Source of the DNA: Patescibacteria group bacterium
GTDB lineage: Bacteria; Patescibacteriota; Patescibacteriia; Magasanikbacterales; UBA922
Reading direction: 5' to 3'
Length of the DNA stretch: 64,000 nt
Assembly: GCA_028687045.1 (NCBI GenBank)
Contig: JAQUAW010000001.1
Span: 2,034 to 66,033, forward strand
The position numbers and the translations under genes are program-made. Under the pieces are notes generated by a model. It saw nothing but the letters and a program-made list of their open reading frames with translations, did no database searches and was not told where the DNA came from. Numbering within the stretch: the stretch's first letter is position 1; each line of letters starts with the position of its first letter. Below, in pieces: positions 1 through 61,784 of the stretch.

Positions 1-525
1 GATAAAATAAAAAACACAGAAACCTTTCCTGGGTGTTTGGCGGTGATTGATCAATTGGAAATCTTGGCAGATCAGCTTGATGATGGACCGATAATTTGTC
101 TCGATGCTATTAAAGATCCAGGTAATCTAGGTACTATTATTCGCACGGCCGATTGGTTTGGTTTCAAGAATATTTTACTTTCTGAAGACACTGTGGATGT
201 CTACAATCCCAAAACTGTGCGTAGTACTATGGGTTCAATTTTTCATTTGAAGATTGCAAAAACCAGTAATCTTTTAAAAACTCTAGAAAAGCTCAAAAAA
301 GAGTCTGAATACAAAATTTACTCACTAGATTTGAAAGGGGAGAGTCACAAAAAAATGAAATATGAAGAAAAAGTTGTCTATATTTTTGGTAGTGAATCTC
401 AAGGAATTAGAGAAGGTCTTGAAAAAATAGTCGATAAGAGCTATAATATAGCAGGTCAAGGTCAAGCTGAATCACTCAATGTGGCAATTTCAGCTGCTAT
501 TGTAATGGCTAATTTATCATCCTAA
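1..525 (+). CDS. SpoU/TrmH-family RNA 2'-O-methyltransferase, C-terminal part. The 5' end is cut by the window edge and the frame is open back to position 1.
   Basis: ORF track 37..525 with no in-frame stop upstream. It has SpoU-like motifs (DPGNLGTIIRTADWFG, ESLNVAISAAI). Confidence 0.6.
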   Translation, partial: DKIKNTETFPGCLAVIDQLEILADQLDDGPIICLDAIKDPGNLGTIIRTADWFGFKNILLSEDTVDVYNPKTVRSTMGSIFHLKIAKTSNLLKTLEKLKKESEYKIYSLDLKGESHKKMKYEEKVVYIFGSESQGIREGLEKIVDKSYNIAGQGQAESLNVAISAAIVMANLSS

Positions 526-558
526 GTCGAGAATACGACGAGGGATCTGTAGACTCTG
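526..558 (+). repeat. Intergenic hairpin repeat, Y-type (…GA.GGATCTGTAGAC…)
   Basis: GTCGAGAATACGACGAGGGATCTGTAGACTCTG. Paired with an inverted X-type copy at 631..678. Confidence 0.6.
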
Positions 559-630
559 ATAACCTTCTTAATCTATTTAGCAACATCTTTTAGAATCAAT
601 TAATGATTTATTAAACAAAAACATTTATAC

Positions 631-678
631 TTAAGAAAGATCCCATGTCGAGCTTCGCCGACTTTGGGATTGTGAGAA
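631..678 (-). repeat. Intergenic hairpin repeat, X-type, abutting the gltX start
   Basis: CTTAAGAAAGATCCC…TTCGCCGACTTTGGGAT is the reverse complement of the X consensus GGTCATCCYGAGCCGACGAAGTACGGCGTAAGGATCTTTCTTAAG. Confidence 0.6.
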
Positions 679-2139: not shown

Positions 2140-2176
2140 AATTTTTTGAGAAAACATGCTATAATAGTTTCTAACT

Positions 2177-6757: not shown

Positions 6758-6803
6758 CGGTCATCCTGAGCCGACGAAGTACGGCGTAAGGATCTTTCTT
6801 AAG
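6758..6803 (+). repeat. X-type hairpin repeat directly upstream of the ftsQ start
   Basis: CGGTCATCCTGAGCCGACGAAGTACGGCGTAAGGATCTTTCTTAAG. Confidence 0.7.
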
Positions 6804-6933
6804 AAGTACTTTTTAGAAATAATTTATGCTAATTGATTCTTATGATTTTGCTAATACTACTTAAAATATAAACATAATAAATTTTCCCCTCCATATTATT
6901 CTGTTAAATATAATTTATATTTTAGAGTTTGTA

Positions 6934-6966
6934 GGGTCTACAGATCCATCGCTCCGCTCAGGATAA
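6934..6966 (-). repeat. Y-type repeat, the inverted partner of 6758..6803
   Basis: Reverse complement is TTATCCTGAGCGGAGCGATGGATCTGTAGACCCT. Confidence 0.65.
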
Positions 6967-6967
6967 T

Positions 6968-12602: not shown

Positions 12603-13082
12603 TTATTTTATTGCTTTTTTGACAATACTTTTTATATTATCATCGGCACTAGTTATTTTCAAATTATCTATTTCAGACAAAGGAATCCATTCTAATTTGG
12701 CATTCAACTGTATTTCTTTTTCTTCAAAATTTTGTTCTTTTGCATTACCTACTAATTCACAGACATAAAAAAACTTAATAGCATGTGATGATCCTAAATT
12801 AAATGGCATCTCAAAAAAACGAGTGTTTATTTCTATCAAATCTTTTACTTTAATTTCAAAACCTGTTTCTTCCAAAAATTCTCTACGCAAAGCGTCAATA
12901 TGATCTTCACCGAGTTCAATCCCACCACCAATCAAATAATAACCTAAATCTCCAAATTTTATCATGAAAACTTTATCATCTTTTATTACCACAGCATATA
13001 CTGATGGACGAAAATATAAATCACTAACTTTCATTATTACTTTTTCACCTTCCATATTGTAGCCTTCAACAGTATTTGACAT
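12603..13082 (-). CDS. Nudix hydrolase (paralog A)
   Basis: Nudix box GGGIELGEDHIDALRREFLEETGF. Confidence 0.75.
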   Translation of the reverse strand: MSNTVEGYNMEGEKVIMKVSDLYFRPSVYAVVIKDDKVFMIKFGDLGYYLIGGGIELGEDHIDALRREFLEETGFEIKVKDLIEINTRFFEMPFNLGSSHAIKFFYVCELVGNAKEQNFEEKEIQLNAKLEWIPLSEIDNLKITSADDNIKSIVKKAIK

Positions 13083-13083
13083 A

Positions 13084-13493
13084 TTAGTTTATTGATTTTT
13101 TTATAATAGAAACTAAGTCAGTACTATCACCTATTTTAATTTTTTCTAATTTTGAAAGTTCAACCCATTTTCACAACTGAAAAATATTCTGATAGCATGA
13201 ACATCTTTATTAAATGAAGGATGTCTGAAAAAACTAGTTTGCACATCAATAATTTTCTTTATTTGTACATTATATCCAGTTTCATCTAGTACTTCTCTAC
13301 TTATTGCATTCTCTATTGTTTCTCCCAAGTCTATTCCCCCACCTGGTAAAGAGTATCCAAAATTTTGGCTTATCATTAAGACTTTTTCATCTTTTGTTAC
13401 TATACCATAAACAGAAATTCTCCAACTCAAATCAGAAATATTCATTTCTATTTTGTTTCTATCTTTATCTTCTCCTGTAACAGTTTTGTTCAT
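13084..13493 (-). pseudogene. Nudix hydrolase paralog B, apparently frameshifted near the 3' end
   Basis: The ORF 13146..13493 stops early (…ENGLNFQN*). A different frame just downstream encodes VELSKLEKIKIGDSTDLVSIIKKSIN, which is homologous to the C-terminal tails of paralogs A and C. Confidence 0.45.
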
Positions 13494-13494
13494 A

Positions 13495-13977
13495 TTATTT
13501 TTTAATACAATTTTTTACTATTTCAAGCAATGTACCATCGTCCCCTGCCATTTTTAGATTTTCTATTTCAGATAAATTTACCCACTCCACACTAACATTC
13601 AAAATATTTTCAGACTCAGTCAATTTTATATCTTCTGGATTTTCCGATATTATTTCAGCTTTATAAAATATTTTTATAGTATGACTGTATTTTTCTTTTA
13701 TTGGTGATTTGAAAAAAGCTGTTTGTATATCAAGTAAATCTCCTACTTCCACAGTATAGCCGGTTTCTTCTTTCAATTCTCTTATCAAGGTATCTATGTG
13801 ATCTTCACCAAGATCAATTCCACCACCTGGTAAAAAATAACCATACTTACCAAACTTTGTCATTAATAATTGATTGTCTTTAATTATGATAGCATAAATT
13901 GATGGTCTAAAATATAAATCATCAACATTGATAATTATTTTTTCATTAGATATTGTTAGTCCGTCAACTGTTTTCAT
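13495..13977 (-). CDS. Nudix hydrolase (paralog C)
   Basis: Nudix box GGGIDLGEDHIDTLIRELKEETGY. Confidence 0.75.
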   Translation of the reverse strand: MKTVDGLTISNEKIIINVDDLYFRPSIYAIIIKDNQLLMTKFGKYGYFLPGGGIDLGEDHIDTLIRELKEETGYTVEVGDLLDIQTAFFKSPIKEKYSHTIKIFYKAEIISENPEDIKLTESENILNVSVEWVNLSEIENLKMAGDDGTLLEIVKNCIKK

Positions 13978-15258: not shown

Positions 15259-15302
15259 GGTCATCCCGATCCGCCGAAGGACGGAAAGGGATCTTTCTTA
15301 AA
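15259..15302 (+). repeat. X-type repeat overlapping the serS 5' end
   Basis: GGTCATCCCGATCCGCCGAAGGACGGAAAGGGATCTTTCTTAAA. It has compensatory stem changes relative to copy 6758..6803. Confidence 0.7.
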
Positions 15303-15370
15303 TATAAATGTTTTTAAAATAATTGACGTTAATTGATTCTAAAAAATGTTTTTGAATAAATAAAAGTTAT

Positions 15371-15416
15371 CAGGGTCTACAGATCCATCATCGTATTCTC
15401 GACTCAGGATGACATT
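15371..15416 (-). repeat. Y-type repeat, the inverted partner of 15259..15302
   Basis: CAGGGTCTACAGATCCATCATCGTATTCTCGACTCAGGATGACATT. Confidence 0.65.
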
Positions 15417-16465
15417 GAATTACAATACTCAATCAACTCTGGCAAAATTTCTTGATATAACTTATTATTGGCTCCAATCATATCTTCGTCTCCTGCTTTT
15501 TCCAAATCAAACCATTCAATTCCCAAAGTCTCGGCGTCAGATATTTCGTTAATGTTGGAAATTACTTTACAAAGCATTGGTACTAGATACACTTGATATT
15601 TTACAACTGAATCTAACTGAGCTTCAACATATATTTTGCTGAGTTGTCTGACTACTTCTACCACATAGCCAACCTCTTCTTGAGTTTCTCTAATTACATT
15701 TGTTTCAAATGTTTCACCAAGTTCCATACTGCCACCTGGGAATTCCCACTTGTTATGGTAGTCTGGTCGATGGGGGTCATTCCTCTTGGACATAAGAATT
15801 TTTCCATTGTCTACAATGATGGCAAGTGGAACAACGATGTGTTTGACACCATACTGATTTTGTAAATAATATTTTATTTTTATCAAAGCTTTGCCGCGGT
15901 GACTTGTTGCATTTTTTTCATTCGGTGTTAGTTCTGCATAAGTTTTTCCTAAATCTTCCAAATAAAATATTGGATCATAGCCCCAAGCAGTCTCTGTGTC
16001 TACACGTTTTTCTAATACCACCCCTTCTCTTACTCCGGTATTAGAAAAAAAACTTTTTTGTTGAGGGTCATAACAAACAAGACAAGATTTGAACTGTGCT
16101 TGTCTTTTTTCTAGTGGGACATCTTTTAATTTTTCTAGTAAAATATTTATACGTTCATCAGCATCAGCACCTACTCGAGCACTAATTACTCCAGGCCAAC
16201 CATCCAAAGCATCTACAAAAATTCCACCATCGTCAGCAATACTCATTAGACCTGTTTTTTCAGCGTAGTATTTGGCTTTAAGCACGGCATTGGCTTCTAT
16301 GGTACTTTCTGTTTCTTCAGGCTCTACTATTTTTTCGGGTAATTCAGCTAGAGACAAAAAATTAAATGGCAAATCTGCCAAAAATTTTTTCATTTCTCTG
16401 AATTTACCTTCATTGGTAGTAGCGATTAATATTTTTCTTTTTTCTTCTGTCATAAGGTTTTTCAC
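15404..16465 (-). CDS. Fusion protein: an RdgB/Ham1-type non-canonical NTP pyrophosphatase (N-terminal) joined to a Nudix hydrolase (C-terminal)
   Basis: N-terminus ILIATTNEGKFREMKKFL with a Ham1-like layout. C-terminus FPGGSMELGETFETNVIRETQEEVGY is a Nudix box. Confidence 0.65.
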   Translation of the reverse strand: MKNLMTEEKRKILIATTNEGKFREMKKFLADLPFNFLSLAELPEKIVEPEETESTIEANAVLKAKYYAEKTGLMSIADDGGIFVDALDGWPGVISARVGADADERINILLEKLKDVPLEKRQAQFKSCLVCYDPQQKSFFSNTGVREGVVLEKRVDTETAWGYDPIFYLEDLGKTYAELTPNEKNATSHRGKALIKIKYYLQNQYGVKHIVVPLAIIVDNGKILMSKRNDPHRPDYHNKWEFPGGSMELGETFETNVIRETQEEVGYVVEVVRQLSKIYVEAQLDSVVKYQVYLVPMLCKVISNINEISDAETLGIEWFDLEKAGDEDMIGANNKLYQEILPELIEYCNSMSS

Positions 16466-16506
16466 AATCCCGAACCCGAGGAACGAGGGAAGGGATCTTT
16501 CTTAAA
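16462..16506 (+). repeat. X-type repeat at the start of the RdgB-Nudix gene
   Basis: TCACAATCCCGAACCCGAGGAACGAGGGAAGGGATCTTTCTTAAA. Confidence 0.7.
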
Positions 16507-16584
16507 TTAAAATTTTTAGAAAATACTTATGTTAATTGATTTTGAAAAACATGCAATTGAAATAGGTATTTTTATTATCACGTT

Positions 16585-16624
16585 TTGACAAATTTCTCCG
16601 CCAAATCGGCGGATCAATTTGTCA
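16585..16624. promoter_or_regulatory. Split palindrome TTGACAAATT–(22-bp GC hairpin)–AATTTGTCA
   Basis: The same half-sites recur at 33788..33809 and 50728..50752. Confidence 0.45.
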
Positions 16625-16628
16625 TTCC

Positions 16629-23832: not shown

Positions 23833-25086
23833 CTATTTTAATAATTCATCAATTGCAATAATTTTAGCTTCACTTTCATTACGTTTTTTAATTTCAACAG
23901 AATCTTGTGCCAAAGTCTTTGGACTTATGATGACACGAAGAGGAATACCAATTAAATCACTATCGGCAAACTTCTCCCCTGCTCGCACACCAATTCTATC
24001 ATCATACAAAACTTCTTTGCCTTGTTTTGTCAAAGTTTCATATAGTTCATCAGCTTTCTTCACATCAGCTTCTTCGCTACAAAGTGAAACAAGATGAATT
24101 TGGAATGGTGCGACGCTCTCTGGCCAAACAAGACCTTTTTCATCAGCAAAGCGCTCAACAATCACTCCCATCAAACGAGTAACACCAATTCCATAAGATC
24201 CTAGATGTACATATTTTTTTTCACCATTTTCGTCTGTAATATAAAGATTCATTTGTTCAGATTTTTTGGTACCAAAATTAAAAATATTTCCCACTTCAGC
24301 TGTTTTGACTTCTTCTAATTCATCACGAGTTACACCCAAATCTTGCAAAACTTTGTCACTCAAAACTTCATTATTGATAGCTATCTTTTTATCACGATTG
24401 ATATAGATAACATCTTCGCCAGCATCGGTAATTGTTTGAAATTCGTGAGAGAACTGTGTGAAGGCTCCACCAGAAGCAAAAGTAACAAAAGTATCGTCAC
24501 CTAGTCCAACACGTTCAAATACGCGCATATAAGCATCTATCACACCTTGATAAAATTTTTCATGTTGTTCTGCATCTAAGCTGTATGAATATAAATCTTT
24601 CATGACAAATTCACGACCACGCAAAATACCTGATTTTGCTCTTAGTTCATTACGCATTTTTGTTTGAAATTGATAAACATAAGCAGGTAAATCTTTGTAA
24701 CTAGAAATGTAATTTTTCATCATTTCACTAATAGGTTCTTCGTGTGACCAACCAAAACCGACTTCTGTGCCATTTTTTAATTTAGATTTGAACCAGACAT
24801 CCACATTTTCATCACTCCAGCGATCGGTATTTTCCCAAAGTTCTTTTCTTTGAAGACTAGTCATGATGAGTTCTTGTCCTCCAACAGCATTCATTTCTTC
24901 ACGAATAATTTGTTTTATTTTTTCAAGTACACAAATACCTAATGGTAGATAAGCATAAGCACCGGCCATTTCTTTGTAAATATATCCTGCGCGTGTCAGA
25001 AATTCTGCATTTTTTGACACTTCATCAGCAGGCGCTTCTTTGCGAGTTTTGGTAAATAATTGTGATTGTTTCATATGTTTTATCAT
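23833..25086 (-). CDS. proS: Prolyl-tRNA synthetase (short, archaeal/eukaryal-like form)
   Basis: 417 aa with class II motifs. Lacks the long bacterial insertion domain. Confidence 0.8.
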   Translation of the reverse strand: MIKHMKQSQLFTKTRKEAPADEVSKNAEFLTRAGYIYKEMAGAYAYLPLGICVLEKIKQIIREEMNAVGGQELIMTSLQRKELWENTDRWSDENVDVWFKSKLKNGTEVGFGWSHEEPISEMMKNYISSYKDLPAYVYQFQTKMRNELRAKSGILRGREFVMKDLYSYSLDAEQHEKFYQGVIDAYMRVFERVGLGDDTFVTFASGGAFTQFSHEFQTITDAGEDVIYINRDKKIAINNEVLSDKVLQDLGVTRDELEEVKTAEVGNIFNFGTKKSEQMNLYITDENGEKKYVHLGSYGIGVTRLMGVIVERFADEKGLVWPESVAPFQIHLVSLCSEEADVKKADELYETLTKQGKEVLYDDRIGVRAGEKFADSDLIGIPLRVIISPKTLAQDSVEIKKRNESEAKIIAIDELLK

Positions 25087-25087
25087 A

Positions 25088-25116
25088 TTGAGCGAAGCGA
25101 AATATCTTTCTTAAGG
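25088..25116 (+). repeat. X'-type repeat at the proS start
   Basis: TTGAGCGAAGCGAAATATCTTTCTTAAGG. Confidence 0.6.
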
Positions 25117-25227
25117 AATACTTCTATAACGCTTCAAATTAATTTTTATTAAATAACTATTTTAAATAACTTTTCTGAGAAGAAATAAATATTTTGTAAG
25201 AAAATTTTTCTTATTATAATATATTTA

Positions 25228-25253
25228 GGAAAGATTCTTCGCTCCGCTCAGAA
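25228..25253 (-). repeat. X'-type repeat, the inverted partner of 25088..25116 (about 110-bp spacer)
   Basis: GGAAAGATTCTTCGCTCCGCTCAGAA, the reverse complement of TTCTGAGCGGAGCGAAGAATCTTTCC. Confidence 0.6.
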
Positions 25254-25640
25254 TTAATTTGCCTTATGCTTGACTGAAATATTGAACGAAATAATCAAGA
25301 CAAACATAATCAAGAGTAAACTTCCAGTAACCATATTTAAATAATTTTGACCTTGTAAAAACAAAGCTAAAATCATAAATAATGACAAAAATAATGATTG
25401 ACGAAAGCTTATTTGGACATAGCGGAATAGCGGCAAATCTTTGGCTCCGAAAAATCTATAAAAGAAAAAGAATATAATTGACAAAGTCCCAAGTACTGAC
25501 AAAAAAAGGCTTCCATAAAAGAAAAGAAAGCCTGATAAAGGTGATGAAGTAGGATCAACATTTAAAATAACAAAAAACCAAGATACCCAACATAGTATCG
25601 TGGCAAAGAGCATTGTAGCAATATATTGACGTAAATTCAT
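25254..25640 (-). CDS. Small polytopic membrane protein of unknown function
   Basis: 128 aa with about 4 TM helices. Confidence 0.4.
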   Translation of the reverse strand: MNLRQYIATMLFATILCWVSWFFVILNVDPTSSPLSGFLFFYGSLFLSVLGTLSIIFFFFYRFFGAKDLPLFRYVQISFRQSLFLSLFMILALFLQGQNYLNMVTGSLLLIMFVLIISFNISVKHKAN

Positions 25641-26026: not shown

Positions 26027-26043
26027 AAATTCTTTGTATAAAT

Positions 26044-26150
26044 AAATGGAGATAAACTTGAGATAAATAGAGATGATACAATAATTTTTCGGTTAAAACT
26101 CATCTCAAGTGTATCTCTATCTTATCTCTTCGTCTTTTATCTTATCACAC
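26044..26150. repeat. GAGATAA/TTATCTC motif cluster upstream of the DciA-like gene
   Basis: GGAGATAAACTTGAGATAAATAGAGATGATAC … ATCTCAAGTGTATCTCTATCTTATCTCTTCG. Homologous to 43707..43778 but with the two arms in swapped order. Confidence 0.55.
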
Positions 26151-26194
26151 ATCATTTCAAAATCCAAATTATTCTTAATAAACAAAGCCCAACA

Positions 26195-29134
26195 TCAAAG
26201 CTGTCTAAACTCACATATCTCCTTAAAATCACAATACTGACAAACATGTTTATTTGGGGTGGCTTTGAAATCCCCTTTTTGGATTCGTTCCATCGCGTCA
26301 AACAGCTTAGCTTCTAACTTTTCTTTGTCTTTGTCTGTACCTACAAAAGACATTTTCTTGTTTTCATTTAAATAAAAGAAAGTTAATTTGTCTATCTTTC
26401 CTAAATTTTGGTATTGTGGCAAAGTTTCCACAGCAATTTGATAAATAAGCAATTGTTGTTTGTCGTCAATTGTTAGTTTATCTTTTGGTGTACCAGTCTT
26501 ATAATCTATAATCTCCAATTTATTATCTTCCACAGCATCAATTCTATCTATTCTACCTTTGACAAAGTATTCCCCTATTTTGATTTTAAATCCGCCTTCA
26601 ATTGTCACTGGGATTGTCCAATTATTTTCTTGTGATTTGTAAAATTCTTTGAGTAATTCTTCACCTTTGGCAAAATATTCTTCTCTTTGGTTTTTACTCT
26701 TGTACCAATCAGGGATCCATTTTCTTTTGTAAATTGCGAGTAATTCTTCTTCATTTGGAATTTTTATTTTGCCCGTACTTTTGTTTTCGGTAACAGTCTC
26801 AAACAAAGATACTTGCTTAGCACTATTCATATCTTGTACTTTTTCATAAAATTCTTGCAAAGTCCCGTGAATAGTATTACCAAAACTAAAATGTGGACTA
26901 CCTTTACTTGGCAAATTCAAAACGTAAGCCAACTTGTAATTGTAAGGGCACTTTTGGTAAGTACTAATACGAGAATAAGAAAATATTTTTGGTGGAATGT
27001 ATTCTATTTCTTCCTCATCATTTTCTATTTGCGTATTTAGTTTTTTTATTTCTTGCATCAGAGTTTGTTCTTTTTCAACAAGTTTTTTTTCTTTATTATC
27101 GAAATCAAGCTCAGCCAAAAAGCGACTTATTTTCTTGGCTCTAGTTCCACCATAACTACTCGCACTTGTCAAAAATAATCTTTGTTTGGCACGAGTCACT
27201 GCCACATAGAAAAGACGACGCTCTTCCTGATAATGCAAATCATTGTTTTCCAAAAACTTTTCTCTAATAAGTTCATCTGGCAAAGCTATTCCTTCACTCT
27301 TGCGTCTAGTTGGAAATCTTTCTTCTACCAAATTTACAATGAAAACATTTTTGTATTCTAGACCTTTTGAACCATGAATAGTGATGATATTGACTGAGTC
27401 TGGTGTATCTTTGATTTGATTTATTTTGCCACCGTCCCCTGATTCGATGATGAATTCATAATTCTCGACAAAACCAGCCACATGGGCTCCAGGTACATTT
27501 TCTTCGTAAGTCCGAATAAGATCAAAAAATTGTTTCAAATGATAAATTTGTCTGATAACGTCTTTGTTTCCTTTATTTTCTTCAATAGTCAAATATGACA
27601 AATAACCAATGCTTTCCATAAATTGATAAAGCAAACTGGTTGGCTTTTCAAATTTACTTTGCTTGATTCCTTCGTGACAGGCGTTTAATAATTTGTTAGC
27701 CATTTCTATCGCGTGAGTAGACAAAAATAATTCTTGAGCTCGCTTGAGTGTTTCATAATAAGACATACTTTTTCTCTTGGCTGTACTTGTCACTTTTTGC
27801 AAATCGTTTTGACTAAATTCCAAAAACGGCATTTTTAGCAAACGAAAAAATGCTTTGTCATCATAAATATTAGTCAGAAGTGTGAGGAAATTGAAAGCAT
27901 CAATCACAATATCTTGACGATAAAGCCCTGCTGAAGCAAGATACTCAAAAGGAATGCCAAAGCTCTCCAAAGCGTTGCTAAATGGCTCTACGTGAGAATT
28001 GGCACGAACAAGAATTGCGAAATCATCCCAATTACTATCTTTATCATTTTCTTTTATTTCCACTATTTTGTTTATCACTCCTACTACTTCTTCATCAAGT
28101 GTTTCATAGTGTAAATGTTCTATTTGAGTGTGCAAATCTTTGAGACCACTTTCCAATCTTTTACTAATTTGTAATTTTTCTTCTAGACGATGTGGATTAT
28201 TATTTTTGATAGAGTTGTAAGCCAAATCCAAGATTTCTTGACCAGAACGATAATTGTCTGTCAGAACAATATTTTTGGCATTAGGATAATCTGTTTTGAA
28301 ATTCATGATGATAGCAACATTGGAACCACGAAAAGAATAGATAGCTTGGTCATCATCCCCTACTACTGTCAGTTTATTATTTTCGCCTGCTAACAATTTT
28401 ACCAATTGATATTGCGCCCAATTGACATCTTGAAATTCATCTACCATTATATATTTAAATCTTTTTTGTAATTTTTTGAGTACGTTTGGTCTGTCTTGCA
28501 AAAGTTTGACTGCATAAAAAATAATATCACCAAAATCCATTGACTCATTATCCAACAATAATTTTTGATATTTATTATAGGCATCAGCCAACTCAATCAA
28601 TCTATTTTTTTCTTGTTTTTCAGCTTCGTCTTTGTCCAAAATCAAAGACTTTACATAATCCAAATAAGCTTGAGGTGTTATCATTTCATCTTTGGCTTTG
28701 GAAAAGTGTGTAAGAAGTTCATGAATATAACGATTTGGACTACCCATTGGTCGATAATAATCAAAATTAAAATCATAAATATGTTCTCGCAAAAGCAACC
28801 AAGCGTCGGTCTCATTTAATAATTTGAAATGATTTGGTAGACCAATTTCAAGACCATATTCTTCCAAAACTTTTTGACAAAAACTATGAAATGTAGAAAT
28901 TTGCATTTCAGTATAATTGGCTTCAATCAGGTCGTCTACTCTATCTTGCATTTCTTGTGCTGCTTTGTCAGTAAAAGTCAAAGCCAAAATTTCTTCGGGC
29001 AAAGCCAATTTTTGCTCGACAATGTGAGCAATTTTTTTGGTAATGACGGTAGTTTTGCCAGTACCAGCACCAGCAATAATCAACAAATTACCATCGTTGT
29101 ATTCTATGGCTTCTTTTTGGTTTTTATTTAACAT
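26195..29134 (-). CDS. UvrD/PcrA-type superfamily-1 helicase fused to a C-terminal PD-(D/E)XK nuclease with a Cys cluster (AddA/RecB-like)
   Basis: N-terminal GAGTGKTT Walker A. C-terminal RIDRIDAV..IIDYKTG plus CQYCDFKEIC. Confidence 0.75.
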   Translation of the reverse strand: MLNKNQKEAIEYNDGNLLIIAGAGTGKTTVITKKIAHIVEQKLALPEEILALTFTDKAAQEMQDRVDDLIEANYTEMQISTFHSFCQKVLEEYGLEIGLPNHFKLLNETDAWLLLREHIYDFNFDYYRPMGSPNRYIHELLTHFSKAKDEMITPQAYLDYVKSLILDKDEAEKQEKNRLIELADAYNKYQKLLLDNESMDFGDIIFYAVKLLQDRPNVLKKLQKRFKYIMVDEFQDVNWAQYQLVKLLAGENNKLTVVGDDDQAIYSFRGSNVAIIMNFKTDYPNAKNIVLTDNYRSGQEILDLAYNSIKNNNPHRLEEKLQISKRLESGLKDLHTQIEHLHYETLDEEVVGVINKIVEIKENDKDSNWDDFAILVRANSHVEPFSNALESFGIPFEYLASAGLYRQDIVIDAFNFLTLLTNIYDDKAFFRLLKMPFLEFSQNDLQKVTSTAKRKSMSYYETLKRAQELFLSTHAIEMANKLLNACHEGIKQSKFEKPTSLLYQFMESIGYLSYLTIEENKGNKDVIRQIYHLKQFFDLIRTYEENVPGAHVAGFVENYEFIIESGDGGKINQIKDTPDSVNIITIHGSKGLEYKNVFIVNLVEERFPTRRKSEGIALPDELIREKFLENNDLHYQEERRLFYVAVTRAKQRLFLTSASSYGGTRAKKISRFLAELDFDNKEKKLVEKEQTLMQEIKKLNTQIENDEEEIEYIPPKIFSYSRISTYQKCPYNYKLAYVLNLPSKGSPHFSFGNTIHGTLQEFYEKVQDMNSAKQVSLFETVTENKSTGKIKIPNEEELLAIYKRKWIPDWYKSKNQREEYFAKGEELLKEFYKSQENNWTIPVTIEGGFKIKIGEYFVKGRIDRIDAVEDNKLEIIDYKTGTPKDKLTIDDKQQLLIYQIAVETLPQYQNLGKIDKLTFFYLNENKKMSFVGTDKDKEKLEAKLFDAMERIQKGDFKATPNKHVCQYCDFKEICEFRQL

Positions 29135-29164
29135 ACTGAGCGGAGCGAAGTATCTTTCCTAAGG
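29135..29164 (+). repeat. X'-type repeat at the helicase-nuclease start
   Basis: ACTGAGCGGAGCGAAGTATCTTTCCTAAGG. Confidence 0.6.
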
Positions 29165-29283
29165 AAAATATCAATAATAAAAAAAAACTTCATCTATATT
29201 AAAATTGTTTAAGCTAGTATTATTCTACTACAATTCTTCAAAAAAACAAAATCTCCCCAACTAAGAGAGATTCTATTCCGCGT

Positions 29284-33236: not shown

Positions 33237-33458
33237 GCGACTTCACAACGTGAGAACTTCTCACGCCATTCAGTCGCTGGTTTCTATCTAAAAAATAGAC
33301 AAAAATCAGCAACTGAATTTTTTGGCACGCACAAAATCATACTCTCCGACATATCCACTGTCAATTACTATATCCTTGACAGAGTGTAATTTGTCGTTCT
33401 ATTTGTAAAAGTTCTCTATACAAAAAAATACACCTAATTTAATAGATGTATTTTTTTT
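33237..33458. repeat. Copy 1 of a 210-220-bp direct repeat. It contains a GC-rich nested hairpin, a degenerate TTGACA palindrome and a terminal hairpin with a T run.
   Basis: About 90% identical to 33650..33866. Starts GCGACTTCACAACGTGAGAACTTCTCACGCCATTCAGTCGC. Confidence 0.7.
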
Positions 33459-33649: not shown

Positions 33650-33866
33650 GCGACTTCGCAACGTGAGTACTTCCCACGCCATTCAGTCGCTAGTTTCTAT
33701 CTAAAAAATAGACAAAAATCAGCAACTGAATTTTTTAGCACGCACAAAATAATACTCTTTGACATATCCACTGTCAATTACTTTACCCTTGACAAATTTC
33801 AATTTGTCGTTCTATTTGTAAAAGTTATTTATATAAAAAAATACACCTATTTTCTAGGTGTATTTT
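33650..33866. repeat. Copy 2 of the same direct repeat. It contains the perfect palindrome CTTGACAAATTTCAATTTGTCG and the terminator TACACCTAttttcTAGGTGTATTTT.
   Basis: Aligns to copy 1 with a 413-bp period. Confidence 0.7.
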
Positions 33867-43696: not shown

Positions 43697-43706
43697 AGAT
43701 ACAAAT

Positions 43707-43778
43707 TTTATCTCAATATATCTCTATTTTATCTCTATCTTATTATAAGGAGATAAATGGAGATAATGTAGAGATATG
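43707..43778. repeat. GAGATAA/TTATCTC motif cluster between atpD and atpC
   Basis: TTTATCTCAATATATCTCTATTTTATCTCTATCTTATTATAAGGAGATAAATGGAGATAATGTAGAGATATGG. Confidence 0.55.
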
Positions 43779-43785
43779 GTTTTAT

Positions 43786-47729: not shown

Positions 47730-47744
47730 ATATTTTTTACTAAT

Positions 47745-47775
47745 CTTGAGCGGAGCGAAAGATCTGTAGACCCTG
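47745..47775 (+). repeat. Y-type repeat upstream of the atpA start
   Basis: CTTGAGCGGAGCGAAAGATCTGTAGACCCTG. Confidence 0.6.
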
Positions 47776-47804
47776 CGAACGCTTCTTTTAATTTAAATGT
47801 TTTT

Positions 47805-48191: not shown

Positions 48192-48200
48192 ATATTTACG

Positions 48201-48243
48201 TCATTCCGACCCGCCGAATCGGCGGGGAGGGATATTTCTTAAA
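48201..48243 (+). repeat. X-type repeat upstream of the atpH start
   Basis: TCATTCCGACCCGCCGAATCGGCGGGGAGGGATATTTCTTAAA, with the perfect inner stem CCCGCCGA/TCGGCGGG. Confidence 0.65.
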
Positions 48244-48308
48244 TCTAAATTATTTTAATTTACAAAACTTTCAAATGATTCTAAAATACTTTTTCAATTA
48301 ATTTATTA

Positions 48309-50157: not shown

Positions 50158-50192
50158 AATTTATTTATTTTGATTTCCATAATTAATGGTGT

Positions 50193-50278
50193 TCTCCCCC
50201 TTGTAGGGGGAGCTAGAGGGGGTTAATGACAATTTAATCAACGTCGAACCCCACCTGACCTCCCCTACAAGGGGAGGA
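50193..50278. repeat. GC-rich composite hairpin element between atpZ and atpB
   Basis: CTCCCCCttgtaGGGGGAG and its inverted twin CCTCCCCtacaaGGGGAGG flank a third hairpin, AGGGGGTT…AACCCCAC. Confidence 0.55.
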
Positions 50279-50297
50279 ACTCTCTAAAAAGTTTTAT

Positions 50298-50558: not shown

Positions 50559-50727
50559 ATTTTTTGAAAGAATGTCTAGAATAAAAACGGTGCTATTATA
50601 ACTGTTTTAACCCATTTAGTCAATTATTTAGCAAATTTGTTGTGAATAATAATAACTAGACAAAATTTGGCCAAAAAATAACACGCCATCAGTTTAGCAA
50701 AAACAAATACGATGTCAATCTGATTAC

Positions 50728-50752
50728 CCTTGACAAATTGGAATTTGTTGTT
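50728..50752. promoter_or_regulatory. Operator-like palindrome CCTTGACAAATTggAATTTGTTG. It overlaps a -35-like TTGACA and lies upstream of tatD.
   Basis: Near-identical to the site at 33788..33809. Confidence 0.45.
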
Positions 50753-50842
50753 CTAAAACAAATAAGCGTTATTTACTCTTAAATAACAAAGAATCTCAAA
50801 ATTACCGAGATTCTTTTTTATTTTATAAATTTTTCAATCAAA

Positions 50843-50880
50843 ACTTTCGTAATTTCGTACTGTTCGTATTTCGTATCCCT
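50843..50880. repeat. TTCGTA array (4 units with an 8-9-bp period) downstream of tatD
   Basis: CTTTCGTAATTTCGTACTGTTCGTATTTCGTATCCCT is a direct repeat of 51790..51830. Confidence 0.6.
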
Positions 50881-51732: not shown

Positions 51733-51742
51733 ACTATTAACT

Positions 51743-51830
51743 GGATACGAAATACGAAAATTTACGAAAGTACGAACTACGGAACTTTCGTATGTTCGTA
51801 CTTTTCGTATTTCGTATCCCTATTAACGAA
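51743..51830. repeat. Long imperfect palindrome built from the same TTCGTA/TACGAA units, upstream of tatD
   Basis: GGATACGAAATACGAAAATTTACGAAAGTACGAAC…CTTTCGTATGTTCGTACTTTTCGTATTTCGTATCC. Confidence 0.6.
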
Positions 51831-52437: not shown

Positions 52438-52454
52438 TTATTTTTGTGGTTTGT

Positions 52455-52602
52455 GAGGAGAACGGTGGGACTCACGTTTGTCTGTCGACTACGGGTATTG
52501 ACGCGAAGGAGGCACGTCAGCACCGCACGTAGAGCAAACTACCAGTCCATCTAGGGAGCAAACTCCCCAGACTATGGCCGCGAGCACTCCACCGTTCCCC
52601 TC
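52455..52602. ncRNA. Candidate structured ncRNA of about 150 nt, identity unknown. It has a long terminal helix and two internal hairpins. The strand is uncertain.
   Basis: About 60% GC in a roughly 30% GC genome. The 5' GAGGAGAACGGTGGGACTCACG pairs with the 3' CGCGAGCACTCCACCGTTCCCCTC. Internal hairpins are CTACG..TGACG..CGTCA..CGTAG and GGGAGcaaaCTCCC. Confidence 0.45.
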
Positions 52603-52662
52603 AACCACAAACTACGATATTTTAGTTAATTTGTCAATAGTTAGTTATAAAAGCAGTTCAAT

Positions 52663-54979: not shown

Positions 54980-55232
54980 AATCCTTATTTCTTAATTCTT
55001 AGTTCTTATATAATAACAAATCTAGCCAAAAAATCAAACTATTGACAAAAAAACGAATTTAAAGTAGATTGACTAATCAATTTTGACTAAACAAGGTCAA
55101 ATTTTGTCTACCAAAGATGCTGTCAAACTATTTAACATTATCTTTGGCAGACCAAAAGTCTGCAAACAGACCTGAGAAGGAACGAGCTGGAAGTACCAGA
55201 ACGTCTCTTCTCACCTGCACCTTGGGAGAGGT

Positions 55233-55460
55233 GTGGAAATAAGACGAACAAAGGCCGACACCTACATCAGTGTAGGTTCGGCCATCGGCGCTATAGCGGG
55301 CGCCGTCTTCGGCCTCGAGGCCGGAGGAAACATGGGTGCAGGAATCTTCTGCACCGTGGTCGGCTCCGCACTTGGAGTCGTCCTTGGACTGGTCGCTATG
55401 CCAGTCCTAAAACTAACCGCTGCGGCGTTTGTCAGATCTGACAAACGCCGCGATCTCTAA
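55233..55460 (+). CDS. Small Gly-zipper membrane protein encoded in a GC-rich island. Alternate start codon; the gene model is uncertain.
   Basis: GSAIGAIAGAVFGLEAGGNMGAGIFCTVVGSALGVVLGLVAM carries GxxxG repeats. Local GC is near 58%. It is followed by two hairpin terminators. Confidence 0.4.
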   Translation: MEIRRTKADTYISVGSAIGAIAGAVFGLEAGGNMGAGIFCTVVGSALGVVLGLVAMPVLKLTAAAFVRSDKRRDL

Positions 55461-55510
55461 CAGCCGTGGGCAGAAGCTAAAAACTTCTTTGCCCACGGCC
55501 ATCCAATCTT
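55413..55510 (+). terminator. Tandem hairpins ending in T8 downstream of the Gly-zipper ORF
   Basis: GCGGCGTTTGTCAGATCTGACAAACGCCGC is a perfect palindrome. It is followed by CCGTGGGCA…TGCCCACGG and then ATCTTGccaaaaCAAGATTTTTTTT. Confidence 0.6.
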
Positions 55511-59680: not shown

Positions 59681-59754
59681 ACTAGTAAACACAACAGATT
59701 CGGCCTAATAAACCGATAAACTAATAAACTCAATATTTCATGAAGCAACATGCA

Positions 59755-59786
59755 CAGGATCTACAGATCTCTCGCTACGCTTCGAG
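59755..59786 (-). repeat. Y-type repeat upstream of the def start
   Basis: CAGGATCTACAGATCTCTCGCTACGCTTCGAG. Confidence 0.55.
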
Positions 59787-59804
59787 ATTTATTATAGAAT
59801 TCCT

Positions 59805-61370: not shown

Positions 61371-61413
61371 GTCATCCTGAACCGACGAAGTACGGTGAAG
61401 GATCTTTCCTAAA
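61371..61413 (+). repeat. X-type repeat between fmt and the GIY-YIG gene
   Basis: GTCATCCTGAACCGACGAAGTACGGTGAAGGATCTTTCCTAAA. Confidence 0.7.
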
Positions 61414-61437
61414 ATAATTTTAATTAATAAATAATTT

Positions 61438-61728
61438 ATGGGAGGAAATAATTATTATGTTTATATAATGACAAGTATAAGTGGCGTTTTATATATTGGG
61501 GTTACAAATGATTTAAGACGTCGAGTGATTGAACATAAAAATGAATTAATAGATGGTTTTACAAAAAAATATAAATGTCATAAGTTAGTGTACTACGAAT
61601 ATTTTACTGATATAAATTATGCCATTCGACGTGAAAAAGAATTAAAAGGTTGGAAAAGAATCAAAAAAATAGAATTAATTAAAAAAGATAATTATAATTT
61701 AATTGATTTATTTCCGAAAATTAATTAG
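61438..61728 (+). CDS. Small stand-alone GIY-YIG nuclease (YhbQ/UPF0213-like)
   Basis: YYVYIMTS…VLYIGVTNDLRRRVIEH…; 96 aa. Confidence 0.8.
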   Translation: MGGNNYYVYIMTSISGVLYIGVTNDLRRRVIEHKNELIDGFTKKYKCHKLVYYEYFTDINYAIRREKELKGWKRIKKIELIKKDNYNLIDLFPKIN

Positions 61729-61749
61729 TTGGAAGTGTATAAATTTAAA

Positions 61750-61784
61750 AAAGATTCTTCGTCCTCTACGGGACTCAGAATGAC
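61750..61784 (-). repeat. Diverged X-type repeat in inverted orientation, downstream of the GIY-YIG gene
   Basis: AAAGATTCTTCGTCCTCTACGGGACTCAGAATGAC. Confidence 0.5.

What the first reader, a model, noticed from the sequence alone, without database searches (positions are those of the whole stretch)
526..678. Dispersed family of GC-rich 30-45-bp hairpin repeats with three mosaic subtypes. Fifteen copies occur in this window. Most are arranged as inverted pairs, and most sit within a few bp of start codons.
Seen in the sequence.
- The X consensus is GGTCATCCYGAGCCGACGAAGTACGGCGTAAGGATCTTTCTTAAG.
- The Y type is …CCTGAGCGGAGCGATGGATCTGTAGACCCTG.
- The X' type is ACTGAGCGGAGCGAAGTATCTTTCCTAAGG.
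- The subtypes share blocks, which suggests recombination between them.
- Copies show compensatory changes in the stem (ATCCT/AGGAT versus ATCCC/GGGAT versus an inner CCCGCCGA/TCGGCGGG). That pattern argues for selection on a hairpin in RNA or DNA.
- Inverted X+Y or X'+X' pairs flank 70-330 bp of AT-rich spacer at 526-678, 6758-6966, 15259-15416, 25088-25253 and 61371-61784.
- Single copies abut the starts of proS, the helicase gene, atpA, atpH, def and the RdgB-Nudix gene.
- The outward end that faces a start codon carries AGGATGA or AGGATAA roughly 10 nt before the ATG.
Inference: this could be a MITE/REP-like mobile family, invertible-promoter-style switches, or a shared translational leader and RNA-processing element.
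Basis: seen in the sequence. Interest (0 to 1): 0.8.

Follow-up and report, generated by a model that had tools for sequence, protein, structure and literature searches.

The report
Ssn-nuclease hairpin repeats in a CPR bacterium
The 15 GC-rich hairpin repeats are real. They are this Magasanikbacteria genome's version of the hairpin repeats that go with a small Ssn-type GIY-YIG single-stranded-DNA nuclease encoded in the same window, so they are a new member of a family described in 2025, here with comparative evidence of gain or loss between relatives.

Summary
An HMM built from the 15 copies recovers exactly those 15 in the window, and 10 of them form 5 inverted pairs.

Each copy has a (T)GTC head and a 5-bp outer stem that starts A-T, T-A. 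Then come GA/GA, an inner mini-hairpin that usually has a GNA triloop, a C right after the palindrome, and one of two tails (CTTTCYTAA or CTGTAGAYCCTG). The head always faces the neighbouring gene: 10 face start codons and 5 face stop codons.

Homologues of that gene across many phyla carry inverted GTC-hairpin-C repeats: 73% on at least one flank and 39% on both, against 5% and 0.3% at random positions. This is the Ssn nuclease / SRM (NTS, dRS3, CGTC-tagged REP) system of Chenal et al. 2025.

The host is a Candidatus Magasanikbacteria (CPR) bacterium. Close relatives show empty, solo-repeat and repeat-ssn-repeat states at three orthologous sites. The spacer of one pair holds a truncated ssn remnant, so the pairs look like MITE-style deletion derivatives.

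The RNA-leader and invertible-switch readings are not supported. Verdict: new member of a known kind, moderate interest.

The parts
516..566 (+). Copy c01. Head ATC, core GTCGAGAATACGAC, Y tail CTGTAGACTCTGATAAC. Overlaps the spoU stop codon (TCA TCC TAA).
   Evidence: (E 9.6e-8)
628..675 (-). Copy c02. Degenerate head ACA, core GTCGGCGAAGCTCGAC, X tail. The head lies 7 nt upstream of the gltX ATG (682).
   Evidence: z -4.2
567..627 (-). AT-rich X arm of the 517-681 doublet (contains AGAATCAATTAA...AAAAACATTTATAC). It is conserved with the arms at 15302-15362, 16506-16545 and 6803-6846.
   Evidence: whole doublet 74% identical to rc 15259-15414
6760..6806 (+). Copy c03. Head GTC, core GCCGACGAAGTACGGC, X tail. 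The head lies 9 nt from the start of the ftsQ-like gene (6751).
   Evidence: E 2.4e-10
6847..6894 (-). Truncated ssn pseudogene (MEGKIYYVYILSSISK...) inside the spacer of the 6758-6967 pair.
   Evidence: tblastn against the L082 Ssn paralogue: residues 1-18, 78% identity, E 6.7e-4. Translation.
6924..6966 (-). Copy c04. Degenerate head ATT, minimal core GAGCGGAGCGA, Y tail. Lies 1 nt from the femAB stop codon.
15260..15305 (+). Copy c05. Head GTC, core TCCGCCGAAGGACGGA, X tail. The head overlaps the longest-ORF start of serS; the likely true start is 15 nt downstream.
15363..15413 (-). Copy c06. Head GTC, core GTCGAGAATACGAT, Y tail. Supplies the last two codons and the stop codon of rdgB-nudix (TCA TCC TGA).
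   Evidence: (I1)
16464..16509 (+). Copy c07. Head ACA, core CCCGAGGAACGAGGG, X tail. Sits at the rdgB-nudix start.
25082..25118 (+). Copy c08 (X' type). Outer stem ATATT/AATAT, minimal core GAGCGAAGCGA, X tail. Sits at the proS start.
25222..25257 (-). Copy c09 (X' type). Outer stem ATTCT/AGAAT, core GAGCGGAGCGA, X tail. Sits at the stop codon of the 128-aa ORF.
29130..29166 (+). Copy c10 (X' type). Outer stem ATACT/AGTAT, core GAGCGGAGCGA. Sits at the start of the AddA-like helicase-nuclease gene.
47740..47783 (+). Copy c11. Outer stem ATCTT/AAGAT, core GAGCGGAGCGA, Y tail. The head lies 11 nt from the atpA start.
48200..48246 (+). Copy c12. Head CGTC, 7-bp inner palindrome CCCGCCG/CGGCGGG, X tail. 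A replaces C after the palindrome. Lies 9 nt from the atpH start.
   Evidence: z -2.4
59743..59791 (-). Copy c13. Outer stem ATCTC/GAGAT, core GAAGCGTAGCGA (GTA triloop), Y tail. Lies 14 nt from the def start.
   Evidence: E 1.8e-3
61371..61416 (+). Copy c14. This is the left terminal repeat of the repeat-ssn-repeat unit. Head TGTC, core ACCGACGAAGTACGGT, X tail. Lies 8 nt after the fmt stop codon.
   Evidence: E 4.2e-10
61438..61728 (+). ssn gene: a 96-aa single-domain GIY-YIG nuclease.
   Evidence: Pfam PF01541 E 4.7e-14. More than 573 relatives in many phyla, at 52-69% identity among the 80 loci kept. The flanks of those relatives carry GTC-hairpin-C repeats. A 100% identical protein sits at the same locus in L109.
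61744..61784 (-). Copy c15. This is the right terminal repeat of the repeat-ssn-repeat unit. Head TGTC, core GTCCCGTAGAGGAC (GTA triloop), tail CTTTTTTAA.

Best explanation
The repeats are the Magasanikbacteria-lineage form of Ssn-related motifs (SRMs). SRMs are oriented DNA hairpin repeats of the NTS / dRS3 / CGTC-tagged REP class.

Shown here:
- The family consists of a GTC head, an AT-initiated covarying stem, and a C immediately 3' of the palindrome.
- One inverted pair forms the terminal repeats of a 96-aa single-domain GIY-YIG gene at 61438-61728.
- The same gene family is bracketed by the same kind of repeat in many phyla.
- A second pair encloses a truncated ssn remnant.
- Three orthologous intergenic sites in close relatives exist in empty, solo-repeat or filled states.

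Inferred from Chenal et al. 2025 (Neisseria, Wolbachia):
- The encoded nuclease binds the GTCAT (top) strand of the hairpin only when that strand is single-stranded. It cuts a few nucleotides 5' of the head, which here is at the junction with the neighbouring gene.
- The 3' C serves binding and the GTC serves cleavage.

Inferred from the anatomy:
- Repeat-ssn-repeat is the autonomous form.
- The Y-spacer-X doublets and the solo copies are non-autonomous deletion derivatives, as MITEs or REPINs are.
- These have accumulated in the short intergenic regions of a compact genome. Only insertions at gene ends survive, and some donate a stop codon (LSS*) or an ATG.
- 9 of the 15 copies have lost the GTC head and are probably fossils that can be bound but not cleaved.

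The benefit to the host, if there is one, may be restriction of incoming ssDNA during natural transformation, as in Neisseria. That step is speculative here.
For: 1. Family and count.
2. Anatomy: the alignment and the table. The first two stem pairs are invariant A-T and T-A in 34 of 34 copies. C follows the palindrome in 14 of the 15 window copies.
3. Strand asymmetry: 8 T.G wobbles and 0 A.C, all read on the GTCAT strand. GNA triloops (GAA, GGA, GTA) and tandem GA/GA occur only on that strand.
4. GIY-YIG gene between inverted copies.
5. Generality: of 79 homologues with full flanks, 58 have a GTC + >=5-bp palindrome + C element in one flank and 31 have one in both. At 3000 random positions in the same loci the figures are 151 (5%) and 10 (0.3%). 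L065 is flanked on both sides by GTCATTCCCGCGCAGGCGGGAATC, a literal instance of the published NTS core.
6. Relatives L082 and L083 have a second ssn paralogue (48% identical). It carries a Y-tailed repeat on one flank and an inverted X-type-tailed repeat on the other.
7. Site polymorphism:
   - spoU-gltX is empty in L081 (5-nt gap) and filled in the window, L082 and L083.
   - femAB-ftsQ is empty in L081 and L083 and filled in the window and L082.
   - fmt-wzy is empty in L086 and L088 (3-nt gap), has a solo repeat in L084, L085 and L087, and has repeat-ssn-repeat in the window and L109.
8. Truncated ssn in the 6758-6967 spacer.
9. Published biochemistry and the association statistics (71% of homologues with at least one flanking repeat, 42% with both): PMC11893778.
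Against: - The published degenerate SRM search string finds 0 matches in the window, because these hairpins are longer and two-tiered.
- I could not assign the ORF to CDD cd10448 or compare it with N. meningitidis SsnA directly.
- No biochemistry exists for this protein or these repeats.
- No target-site duplication or defined insertion signature was found at the three empty/filled comparisons, so deletion or recombination could explain part of the polymorphism.
- Copies within the window are only about 74-90% identical, so there is no sign of very recent activity in this genome.
- The nearest-neighbour DNA energy model does not distinguish the top from the bottom strand, and most single copies are not significantly more stable than shuffles.
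- The strand argument rests on wobble and loop asymmetry, and on a register that I chose.
Confidence: 0.8

Rival explanations
1. The hairpins act mainly at the RNA level. They would be 5'-terminal stem-loops that stabilise the mRNA or sequester an AGGA-like ribosome-binding site, together with 3' stem-loops that terminate or protect transcripts. The AT-rich spacers would carry the promoters.
For: - All copies are intergenic and lie within 0-24 nt of a start or stop codon.
- A -10-like hexamer (TATACT, TATATT) sits just upstream of TTAAGAAAGATCC in several X arms (read directly from the sequence).
- REPs and Neisseria repeats are known to be co-transcribed and to affect mRNA (background in PMC3733652).
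- Secondary exaptation of this kind is not excluded.
Against: - The same element occurs in both orientations relative to transcription, so the mRNAs would carry complementary, non-equivalent sequences.
- All 8 wobbles are T.G on the GTCAT strand, which is antisense to the mRNA for most start-proximal copies.
- The consensus scans call no promoter in the two spacer regions scanned and no intrinsic terminator at the repeats there.
- There is no Rfam match.
- Orthologous genes in relatives do without the elements.
- The AGGA lies 12-17 nt from the likely true starts, and most genes here have no Shine-Dalgarno sequence.
Confidence: 0.12
2. The inverted pairs are invertible DNA switches. A site-specific recombinase would flip the AT-rich spacer between the inverted repeats and so change promoter direction.
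For: Five inverted-repeat pairs flank spacers of 70-330 bp that sit between genes.
Against: - No tyrosine or serine recombinase is encoded in the 64-kb window. The main ORFs of 90 aa or more in the gene map were scanned with Pfam, apart from the 96-aa ssn gene, which is the only mobile-element-type gene found.
- One third of the copies are solo.
- The arms of a pair usually belong to different subtypes (Y with X) and have different hairpin cores.
- The two homologous doublets (517-681 and 15259-15412) have the same internal orientation relative to their flanking genes.
- The relative L082 has the same orientation as the window at both shared sites.
Confidence: 0.02
3. The repeats are REP/REPIN elements in the strict sense. 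They would be mobilised by a RAYT (IS200/IS605-type Y1 HUH transposase) encoded elsewhere in the genome, and the GIY-YIG gene would be a passenger.
For: The elements have the general look of REPs and BIMEs: hairpins with an unpaired head, inverted doublets, and an intergenic location. The rest of the genome was not available to search.
Against: - No RAYT is in the window or in about 100 kb of loci from relatives with called genes.
- The head is (T/C)GTC, not the GTAG that RAYTs cleave. CGTC-tagged REPs were reported to lack a dedicated transposase (PMC3733652).
- The association of the GIY-YIG gene with GTC-hairpin-C repeats recurs across phyla at 73% and 39%, against 5% and 0.3% in controls. 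A passenger would not show that.
Confidence: 0.04

Closest known systems
Ssn nucleases with NTS / SRM repeats (Chenal et al., Nat Commun 2025, PMC11893778)
   Same: - The protein is a ~94-96-aa single-domain GIY-YIG protein.
- Its gene is bracketed by inverted hairpin repeats.
- The repeat has a (C/T)GTC head, a palindrome that starts AT, and a C immediately 3'.
- There are many solo copies, almost all intergenic.
- The flank-association figures I measured (73% and 39%) match the published ones (71% and 42%).
   Different: - The host is a Patescibacteria (CPR) MAG. The word Patescibacteria does not occur in the paper's main text, and the paper surveyed reference and representative genomes.
- The hairpin is two-tiered (5-bp outer stem, GA/GA, inner stem, GNA triloop) and carries long lineage-specific tails.
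- The published degenerate search string gives 0 hits.
- Activity is untested here.
- Here there is direct comparative evidence for gain or loss of solo, doublet and ssn-bearing forms, plus an ssn remnant inside a doublet. The paper only hypothesised mobility.
Neisseria dRS3 repeats and neisserial intergenic mosaic elements (NIMEs); CGTC-tagged REP superfamily including Rickettsia RPE-4/6 (Di Nocera et al. 2013, PMC3733652)
   Same: - The unpaired head is CGTC or TGTC.
- The stems begin with A-T, T-A (34 of 34 copies here).
- There is a short unpaired tail that begins with C.
- Hairpins and intervening segments are arranged as a mosaic in intergenic regions.
- Some copies run into coding ends.
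   Different: - The published families have simple 8-9-bp stems with 4-5-nt loops and CCA tails, and occur mostly as head-to-head dimers.
- Here the stems are interrupted and the loops are triloops.
- The tails are 9-17 nt long, and the dimers are tail-to-tail, separated by 70-330 bp.
REP / REPIN / BIME elements with RAYT transposases (REPtrons)
   Same: The logic is the same. A single-copy nuclease gene is flanked by inverted copies of a hairpin repeat that also occurs as many dispersed singlets and doublets, and recognition is thought to occur on ssDNA.
   Different: - The enzyme class differs: GIY-YIG rather than Y1 HUH.
- The head motif differs: GTC rather than GTAG.
- No RAYT is present.
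- No transposition chemistry has been demonstrated for Ssn.
Bacterial MITEs (Correia/NEMIS, RUP, ERIC, Nezha)
   Same: The doublets are 150-220 bp, non-coding and bounded by inverted repeats. They are inserted next to genes, are present or absent between close relatives, and one derives visibly from a coding element by internal deletion.
   Different: No DDE transposase parent and no target-site duplication were detected. The terminal repeats are themselves hairpins with strand-specific features.

Membership tests
Ssn nuclease family (GIY-YIG, CDD cd10448) | Small (~94 aa) single-domain GIY-YIG protein with no extra DNA-binding domain | tested here: met
   The ORF is 96 aa. Pfam PF01541 covers residues 5-75, E 4.7e-14, and there is no other domain. 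The motifs YVYI, LYIG, RRR and REKE are present.
Ssn nuclease family (GIY-YIG, CDD cd10448) | Falls in the cd10448 clade with N. meningitidis SsnA | not testable with these tools
   Neither CDD nor the Nm SsnA sequence was available. Indirect evidence only: relatives at 52-69% identity are flanked by canonical NTS-type repeats, for example L065, L034, L042 and L073. The best PDB hits are the separate UPF0213 proteins, and only at E 5e-5.
Ssn nuclease family (GIY-YIG, CDD cd10448) | Gene flanked on both sides by inverted hairpin repeats | tested here: met
   Copy c14 (61371-61416, +) and copy c15 (61744-61784, -) flank the gene with their heads outward. The same holds for the paralogue in L082 and L083 and for 39% of 79 homologues.
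Ssn nuclease family (GIY-YIG, CDD cd10448) | Site-specific cleavage of ssDNA only, next to the cognate hairpin | not testable with these tools
   This needs purified protein and oligonucleotide assays.
Ssn-related motif (SRM / NTS) repeats | Oriented hairpin repeat of 20-50 nt with a conserved 5' GTC head and a C directly after the palindrome | tested here: met
   C follows the palindrome in 14 of 15 window copies. An exact GTC head is present in 6 of 15 (c03, c05, c06, c12, c14, c15) and is degenerate in the rest. The stem covaries.
Ssn-related motif (SRM / NTS) repeats | Matches the published degenerate search string HGTCWYN(0-2)YYVSBRHN(0-5)WNVSBRGN(0-2)RNCYNB | tested here: not met
   There are 0 matches in the window, against 0.02 in shuffles. 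The string allows at most about 19 nt of hairpin. It also matched only 14 of 79 ssn flanks in my set, against 58 of 79 for a generic GTC-palindrome-C test. It is therefore a search aid and not a definition.
Ssn-related motif (SRM / NTS) repeats | Multicopy, enriched over chance, almost exclusively intergenic, and spatially associated with ssn | tested here: met
   There are 15 copies in 64 kb. All are intergenic or overlap only terminal codons. The ssn gene is in the same window. Relatives L082 and L083 carry 3.3 copies per 10 kb.
CGTC-tagged REP superfamily (Di Nocera 2013) | Unpaired CGTC/TGTC head; stem with A-T and T-A in the first two positions; short unpaired tail | tested here: met
   Heads are TGTC, CGTC or GGTC in the intact copies. 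The first two pairs are A-T and T-A in 34 of 34 copies. The tail begins with C. Stem and loop geometry differ from the four published families.
REP/RAYT (REPtron, REPIN) | Associated RAYT (Y1 HUH transposase) and a GTAG head | tested here: not met
   No Y1 transposase was found among the window ORFs scanned or among the called genes of L081-L083. The head is GTC, not GTAG.
Invertible promoter switches (fim/hin-type, invertons) | Inverted repeats that flank a promoter, with a cognate site-specific recombinase | tested here: not met
   There is no recombinase in the window. The orientation is the same in the window and in L082 at both shared sites. No promoter was called in the two spacer regions scanned.

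The most novel reading that the evidence does not exclude
Repeat-ssn-repeat is an autonomous mobile element of a class not yet recognised as a transposon. It would be driven by a 96-aa GIY-YIG ssDNA nuclease that cuts at hairpin ends. The doublets and solo hairpins would be its MITEs, and the element would have been active within Magasanikbacteria since the divergence of genomes whose GltX proteins are still 85-92% identical. The empty, solo and full series at fmt-wzy and the ssn stump at 6847-6894 would then be natural snapshots of its life cycle, in a phylum where no mobile-element biology of this kind has been described.
Probability: 0.35. Interest if true: 0.75.

Novelty: new member of a known kind. 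Interest (0 to 1): 0.4.

Why it matters
- It places a repeat family that would otherwise look enigmatic in a CPR genome into the recently defined Ssn/SRM system, and extends that system to Patescibacteria.
- The published SRM search string misses two-tiered hairpins of this kind. Ssn-associated repeats are therefore probably under-counted.
- The orthologous-site series (empty, solo, repeat-ssn-repeat) and the ssn remnant inside a doublet are comparative evidence that these elements are gained, decay and are lost in the way transposon/MITE families are. The 2025 paper raised that only as a hypothesis.
- Each new cognate nuclease-hairpin pair is also a candidate sequence-specific ssDNA-cutting reagent.

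Tried and rejected
- Rfam at gathering and at E <= 0.1 gave no family for the repeats.
- ARAGORN found no tRNA or tmRNA.
- The published SRM regex gave 0 hits.
- A purely structural scanner (AT-initiated 5-bp stem, GC-rich interior, then C) was useless in this AT-rich genome: 58 hits against 54.7 in Markov simulations. I replaced it with a sequence HMM.
- Consensus promoter and terminator scans gave nothing at the repeats.
- ssDNA folding of the top against the bottom strand showed no energetic asymmetry in the nearest-neighbour model.
- An exact-protein look-up of the window's GltX found nothing on record, so the source genome itself was not identified.
- NCBIfam gave no specific family for the ORF.
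- PDB has no Ssn structure; only UPF0213 proteins hit, at E 5e-5.
- No supplementary files were held for the Ssn paper, so there was no Nm SsnA sequence.
- I looked for target-site duplications at three empty/filled sites and found none that was convincing. A GAACAC repeat near gltX is locus-specific.
- I looked for ssn remnants in the other spacers and found none besides 6847-6894.
- The IMG/VR scan found the 25-nt core in 79 contigs, but only 1 of the fetched loci has an ssn homologue. That gives no evidence for a viral vector.
Full report

Yes. The window is about 31% G+C, and the GC-rich 30-50-nt elements stand out in the intergenic regions.
- GAGCGGAGCGA with up to 1 mismatch occurs 5 times against 0.04 expected.
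- The composite X module AATCAWTTRA-N24-29-TTAAGAAAKATCC occurs 4 times against 0 expected.
- An nhmmer profile built from the 15 copies returns exactly those 15 (E 2e-10 to 2e-3). The next hit has E 8.7.
- Ten copies form five inverted pairs: 517-681, 6758-6967, 15259-15412, 25087-25253 and 61371-61784.
- Two whole doublets, 514-681 and the reverse complement of 15259-15414, align end to end at 74% identity, AT-rich spacer included. The unit that is repeated is therefore larger than the hairpin.

**2. Anatomy**

I oriented every copy the same way. Each copy then reads, in order:
- a head, (T/C/G)GTC, exact in 6 of 15 copies;
- a 5-bp outer arm, AT-Y-Y-N;
- GA;
- an inner stem closed by C-G around a GNA triloop (GAA, GGA or GTA), often with a bulged A on the 3' side;
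- GA;
- the complementary outer arm;
- C, present in 14 of 15 copies;
- T and one of two tails, CTTTCYTAA (X, X') or CTGTAGAYCCTG(ATAAC) (Y).

The core GTCGAGAATACGAC carries the Y tail in the window and the X tail in relatives.

The outer stem was scored on 34 distinct copies from the window and relatives.
- It is paired in 98.8% of cells, against 88.5 +/- 1.1% in shuffles (0 of 500 reach it).
- It has 22 double-sided changes against 5.6 expected (0 of 500).
- The first two pairs are invariant A-T and T-A.
- Caveat: I chose each copy's register to maximise pairing, although the invariant AT/AT and the following C anchor it.

All 8 wobbles are T.G on the head-bearing strand, and there is no A.C. 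The GNA loops and the tandem GA/GA likewise exist only on that strand. From my own knowledge, d(GCGNAGC)-type GNA mini-hairpins and sheared G.A pairs are unusually stable in DNA. The nearest-neighbour model used here does not capture that. It predicts the two-tier fold in 13 of 15 copies, but with modest energies and no strand difference.

**3. Position**

The head always faces the adjacent gene and the tail faces the spacer.
- Ten heads lie 0-24 nt from a start codon: gltX, an ftsQ-like gene, serS, rdgB-nudix, proS, an AddA-like helicase gene, atpA, atpH, def and a Wzy_C gene.
- Five lie on or next to a stop codon: spoU, femAB, rdgB-nudix, a 128-aa ORF and fmt.
- In spoU and rdgB-nudix the element supplies the last two codons and the stop (TCA TCC TRA).
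- The ATG of the longest serS, proS and helicase ORFs is the CAT of the head read backwards.
- For serS, proS and rdgB the canonical N-terminus starts at the second Met, 12-15 nt downstream.

**4. The missed gene**

ORF 61438-61728 lies exactly between inverted copies c14 and c15. It encodes a 96-aa protein that is nothing but a GIY-YIG domain (Pfam E 4.7e-14; sequence).

A scan of one genome per species found more than 573 relatives. The 80 loci kept are 52-69% identical and come from Proteobacteria, Bacteroidota, Chloroflexota, Patescibacteria and other phyla. Printing their flanks showed the same design nearly everywhere: (T)GTCAT, then a hairpin, then ATC, on both sides, inverted, with heads outward.

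I quantified this with a generic test (GTC, then a palindrome of at least 5 bp, then C, within 150 nt).
- 58 of 79 homologues have it on at least one side and 31 of 79 on both.
- At 3000 random positions in the same loci the figures are 5% and 0.3%.

**5. What is known**

A full-text search led to Chenal et al. 2025 (PMC11893778).
- They define the Ssn family: roughly 94-aa single-domain GIY-YIG proteins, CDD cd10448.
- They define its cognate hairpin repeats: NTS in Neisseria (CGTCATTCCCGCGMAVGCGGGAATCYRG, which contains dRS3) and SRMs in general.
- They report that 71% of homologues have at least one SRM nearby and 42% have SRMs on both sides. My figures match these.
- Biochemically, SsnA binds and cuts only the ssDNA form of one strand, a few nucleotides 5' of the motif.
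- The C just after the palindrome matters most for binding, and the three bases before the palindrome matter most for cleavage.
- In N. meningitidis the system lowers transformation by NTS-bearing DNA.
- They note that NTS-ssnA-NTS looks like an insertion sequence and draw the REP/RAYT analogy, but only as a hypothesis.

Di Nocera et al. 2013 (PMC3733652) had earlier grouped dRS3, Rickettsia RPE-4/6 and others as CGTC-tagged REPs. In those repeats the stems start A-T, T-A, and they "apparently lack a dedicated transposase".

The window's repeats share the head, the AT-initiated stem and the 3' C. They do not match the published degenerate SRM string (0 hits), because the hairpin is longer and two-tiered. 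That string also missed most ssn flanks in my own set (14 of 79 against 58 of 79), so I treat it as a search aid and not as a definition.

I could not run CDD or obtain the Neisseria protein. Membership of the ORF in cd10448 therefore rests on indirect evidence. For example, the homologue in L065 is flanked on both sides by GTCATTCCCGCGCAGGCGGGAATC, which is a literal NTS core.

**6. Host and comparative evidence**

GltX places the window in Candidatus Magasanikbacteria (Patescibacteria/CPR). The best hits are 92-76% identical. I fetched orthologous loci and found three sites that are polymorphic.

| Site | Empty | Solo repeat | Filled |
|---|---|---|---|
| spoU-gltX | L081 (5-nt gap) | none | window, L082, L083; L083 has a different core/tail combination |
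| femAB-ftsQ | L081, L083 | none | window, L082; L082 has extra nested units |
| fmt-wzy | L086, L088 (3-nt gap) | L084, L085, L087, where the repeat replaces the fmt C-terminus with ...LSS* or ...MSF* | window, L109: repeat-ssn-repeat, with Ssn 100% identical between the two |

- The fmt C-terminus ...LK* is shared by the empty sites and by the window. This argues that the repeat-free state is ancestral at that site.
- Repeat density ranges from 0 (L081, L086, L088, L089) to 3.3 per 10 kb (L082, L083). The window has 2.3 per 10 kb.
- L082 and L083 carry a second ssn paralogue, 48% identical to the window's. It has a Y-tailed repeat on one flank and an inverted X-type-tailed repeat on the other.
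- The spacer of the 6758-6967 pair contains, on the minus strand at 6847-6894, MEGKIYYVYILSSISK followed by divergence and a stop. This is 14 of 16 identical to the N-terminus of that paralogue (tblastn E 6.7e-4).
- So at least one doublet is a repeat-ssn-repeat unit that has lost most of its gene.

**7. Mechanism**

Shown:
- The family, its covarying and strand-asymmetric hairpin, its physical association with ssn here and across phyla, its turnover between relatives, and the derivation of one doublet from an ssn-bearing unit.

Inferred from published biochemistry:
- The Ssn protein recognises the head-bearing strand as ssDNA and nicks just outside the head. Here that is at the boundary with the neighbouring gene.
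- Nine of the 15 copies have lost GTC and are likely non-cleavable fossils.

Inferred from anatomy:
- Repeat-ssn-repeat is the autonomous form, and doublets and solos are non-autonomous descendants.
- They persist only where a compact genome tolerates them, which is at gene ends.

Speculative:
- A host-level role in restricting incoming ssDNA.

Not found:
- No target-site duplication or insertion signature, so the transposition chemistry, if there is any, remains open. Part of the polymorphism could be deletion or recombination.

**8. Rivals**

- An RNA leader or terminator role is not supported as the primary function. The copies lie in both orientations, the wobble asymmetry follows the head strand and not the transcript, there is no Rfam match, no promoter or terminator is called, and orthologues do without the elements. 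Exaptation of individual copies is not excluded.
- An invertible switch is not supported. There is no recombinase in the window, the arms of a pair are heterotypic, and the orientation is fixed in relatives.
- A RAYT-driven REP is not supported. There is no RAYT, the head is wrong, and the GIY-YIG association recurs across phyla.

**9. Verdict**

The finding is real and well described, and the MITE/REP-like reading is the right one of the three offered. The system belongs to the Ssn/SRM (CGTC-REP, dRS3/NIME-like) kind described in 2025. It is a new member in a CPR lineage, with an unusual two-tier hairpin that escapes the published motif. The comparative snapshots support mobility. Interest is moderate.

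Noticed in passing
L082:~9942 and ~16215; L081:~1549; L026 upstream of 7523: A 20-bp perfect palindrome, CCTGCCTGCCGGCAGGCAGG, is inserted exactly between TTAAGAAA and GATCC of the X tail at two separate loci in relative L082. Single copies occur in L081 and in a Liptonbacteria locus, and the window has none. It looks like a second palindromic repeat family that targets or travels with the X element.
   Followed up: partly
window 26027-26194 and 43697-43785: Iteron-like arrays of TATCTC / GAGATAA motifs in both orientations lie in the intergenic regions on the upstream side of the AddA-like helicase gene and of atpD. They may be binding sites for a regulator.
   Followed up: no
window 50842-50880, 51733-51821: TTCGTA-rich repeat blocks flank the tatD-like gene on both sides. 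They include a 39-nt direct repeat at 92% identity and an inverted copy.
   Followed up: no
window 33237-33440 and 33650-33853; partial copy 50703-50757: A 204-nt direct repeat (91% identity) lies inside a 666-nt, relatively GC-rich intergenic region, and a third partial copy lies 17 kb away. Rfam gives no match, so an unannotated structured RNA or a mobile element is possible.
   Followed up: partly
window 52438-52662 and 55080-55540: Two GC-rich islands sit in an otherwise 31% G+C genome. The first has long-range complementarity between its ends (GTGGTTTGTGAGGAGAACGGTGGG ... CCACCGTTCCCCTCAACCACAAAC). Neither matches an Rfam family, even at E <= 0.1.
   Followed up: partly
window 50185-50290: GC-rich inverted repeats (CCCCCTTGTAGGGGGAG / CTCCCCTACAAGGGGAGG) lie upstream of the ATP synthase A-chain gene. 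The only Rfam hit there is a chance match to a plant microRNA family (E 0.0075, well below the gathering score).
   Followed up: partly
window 12603-13977: Three tandem NUDIX-domain paralogues (159, 115 and 160 aa) account for the largest direct repeats found in the window.
   Followed up: partly
window 2140-2176 and 55520-55585: Extended -10-like TGCTATAAT boxes lie close upstream of start codons (11 nt before the ATG at 2177), and most genes lack a Shine-Dalgarno sequence. This suggests very short or leaderless 5' UTRs in this organism.
   Followed up: no
L146-L224 (IMG/VR contigs): The 25-nt repeat core GTCATYCTGAGCGRAGCGAAGRATC occurs exactly in 79 predicted viral contigs. Only one fetched locus also has an ssn homologue. 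Solo copies of this hairpin type are therefore widespread outside ssn neighbourhoods, possibly in proviral or misbinned host DNA.
   Followed up: partly
window 16578-16628: A different long hairpin (GACAAATTT-CTCCGCCAAATCGGCGGAT-CAATTTGTC) follows the stop codon of the cytidylyltransferase-like gene and ends in GTCATTCC. The repeat-family HMM does not detect it. It may be a terminator or a decayed relative of the family.
   Followed up: no
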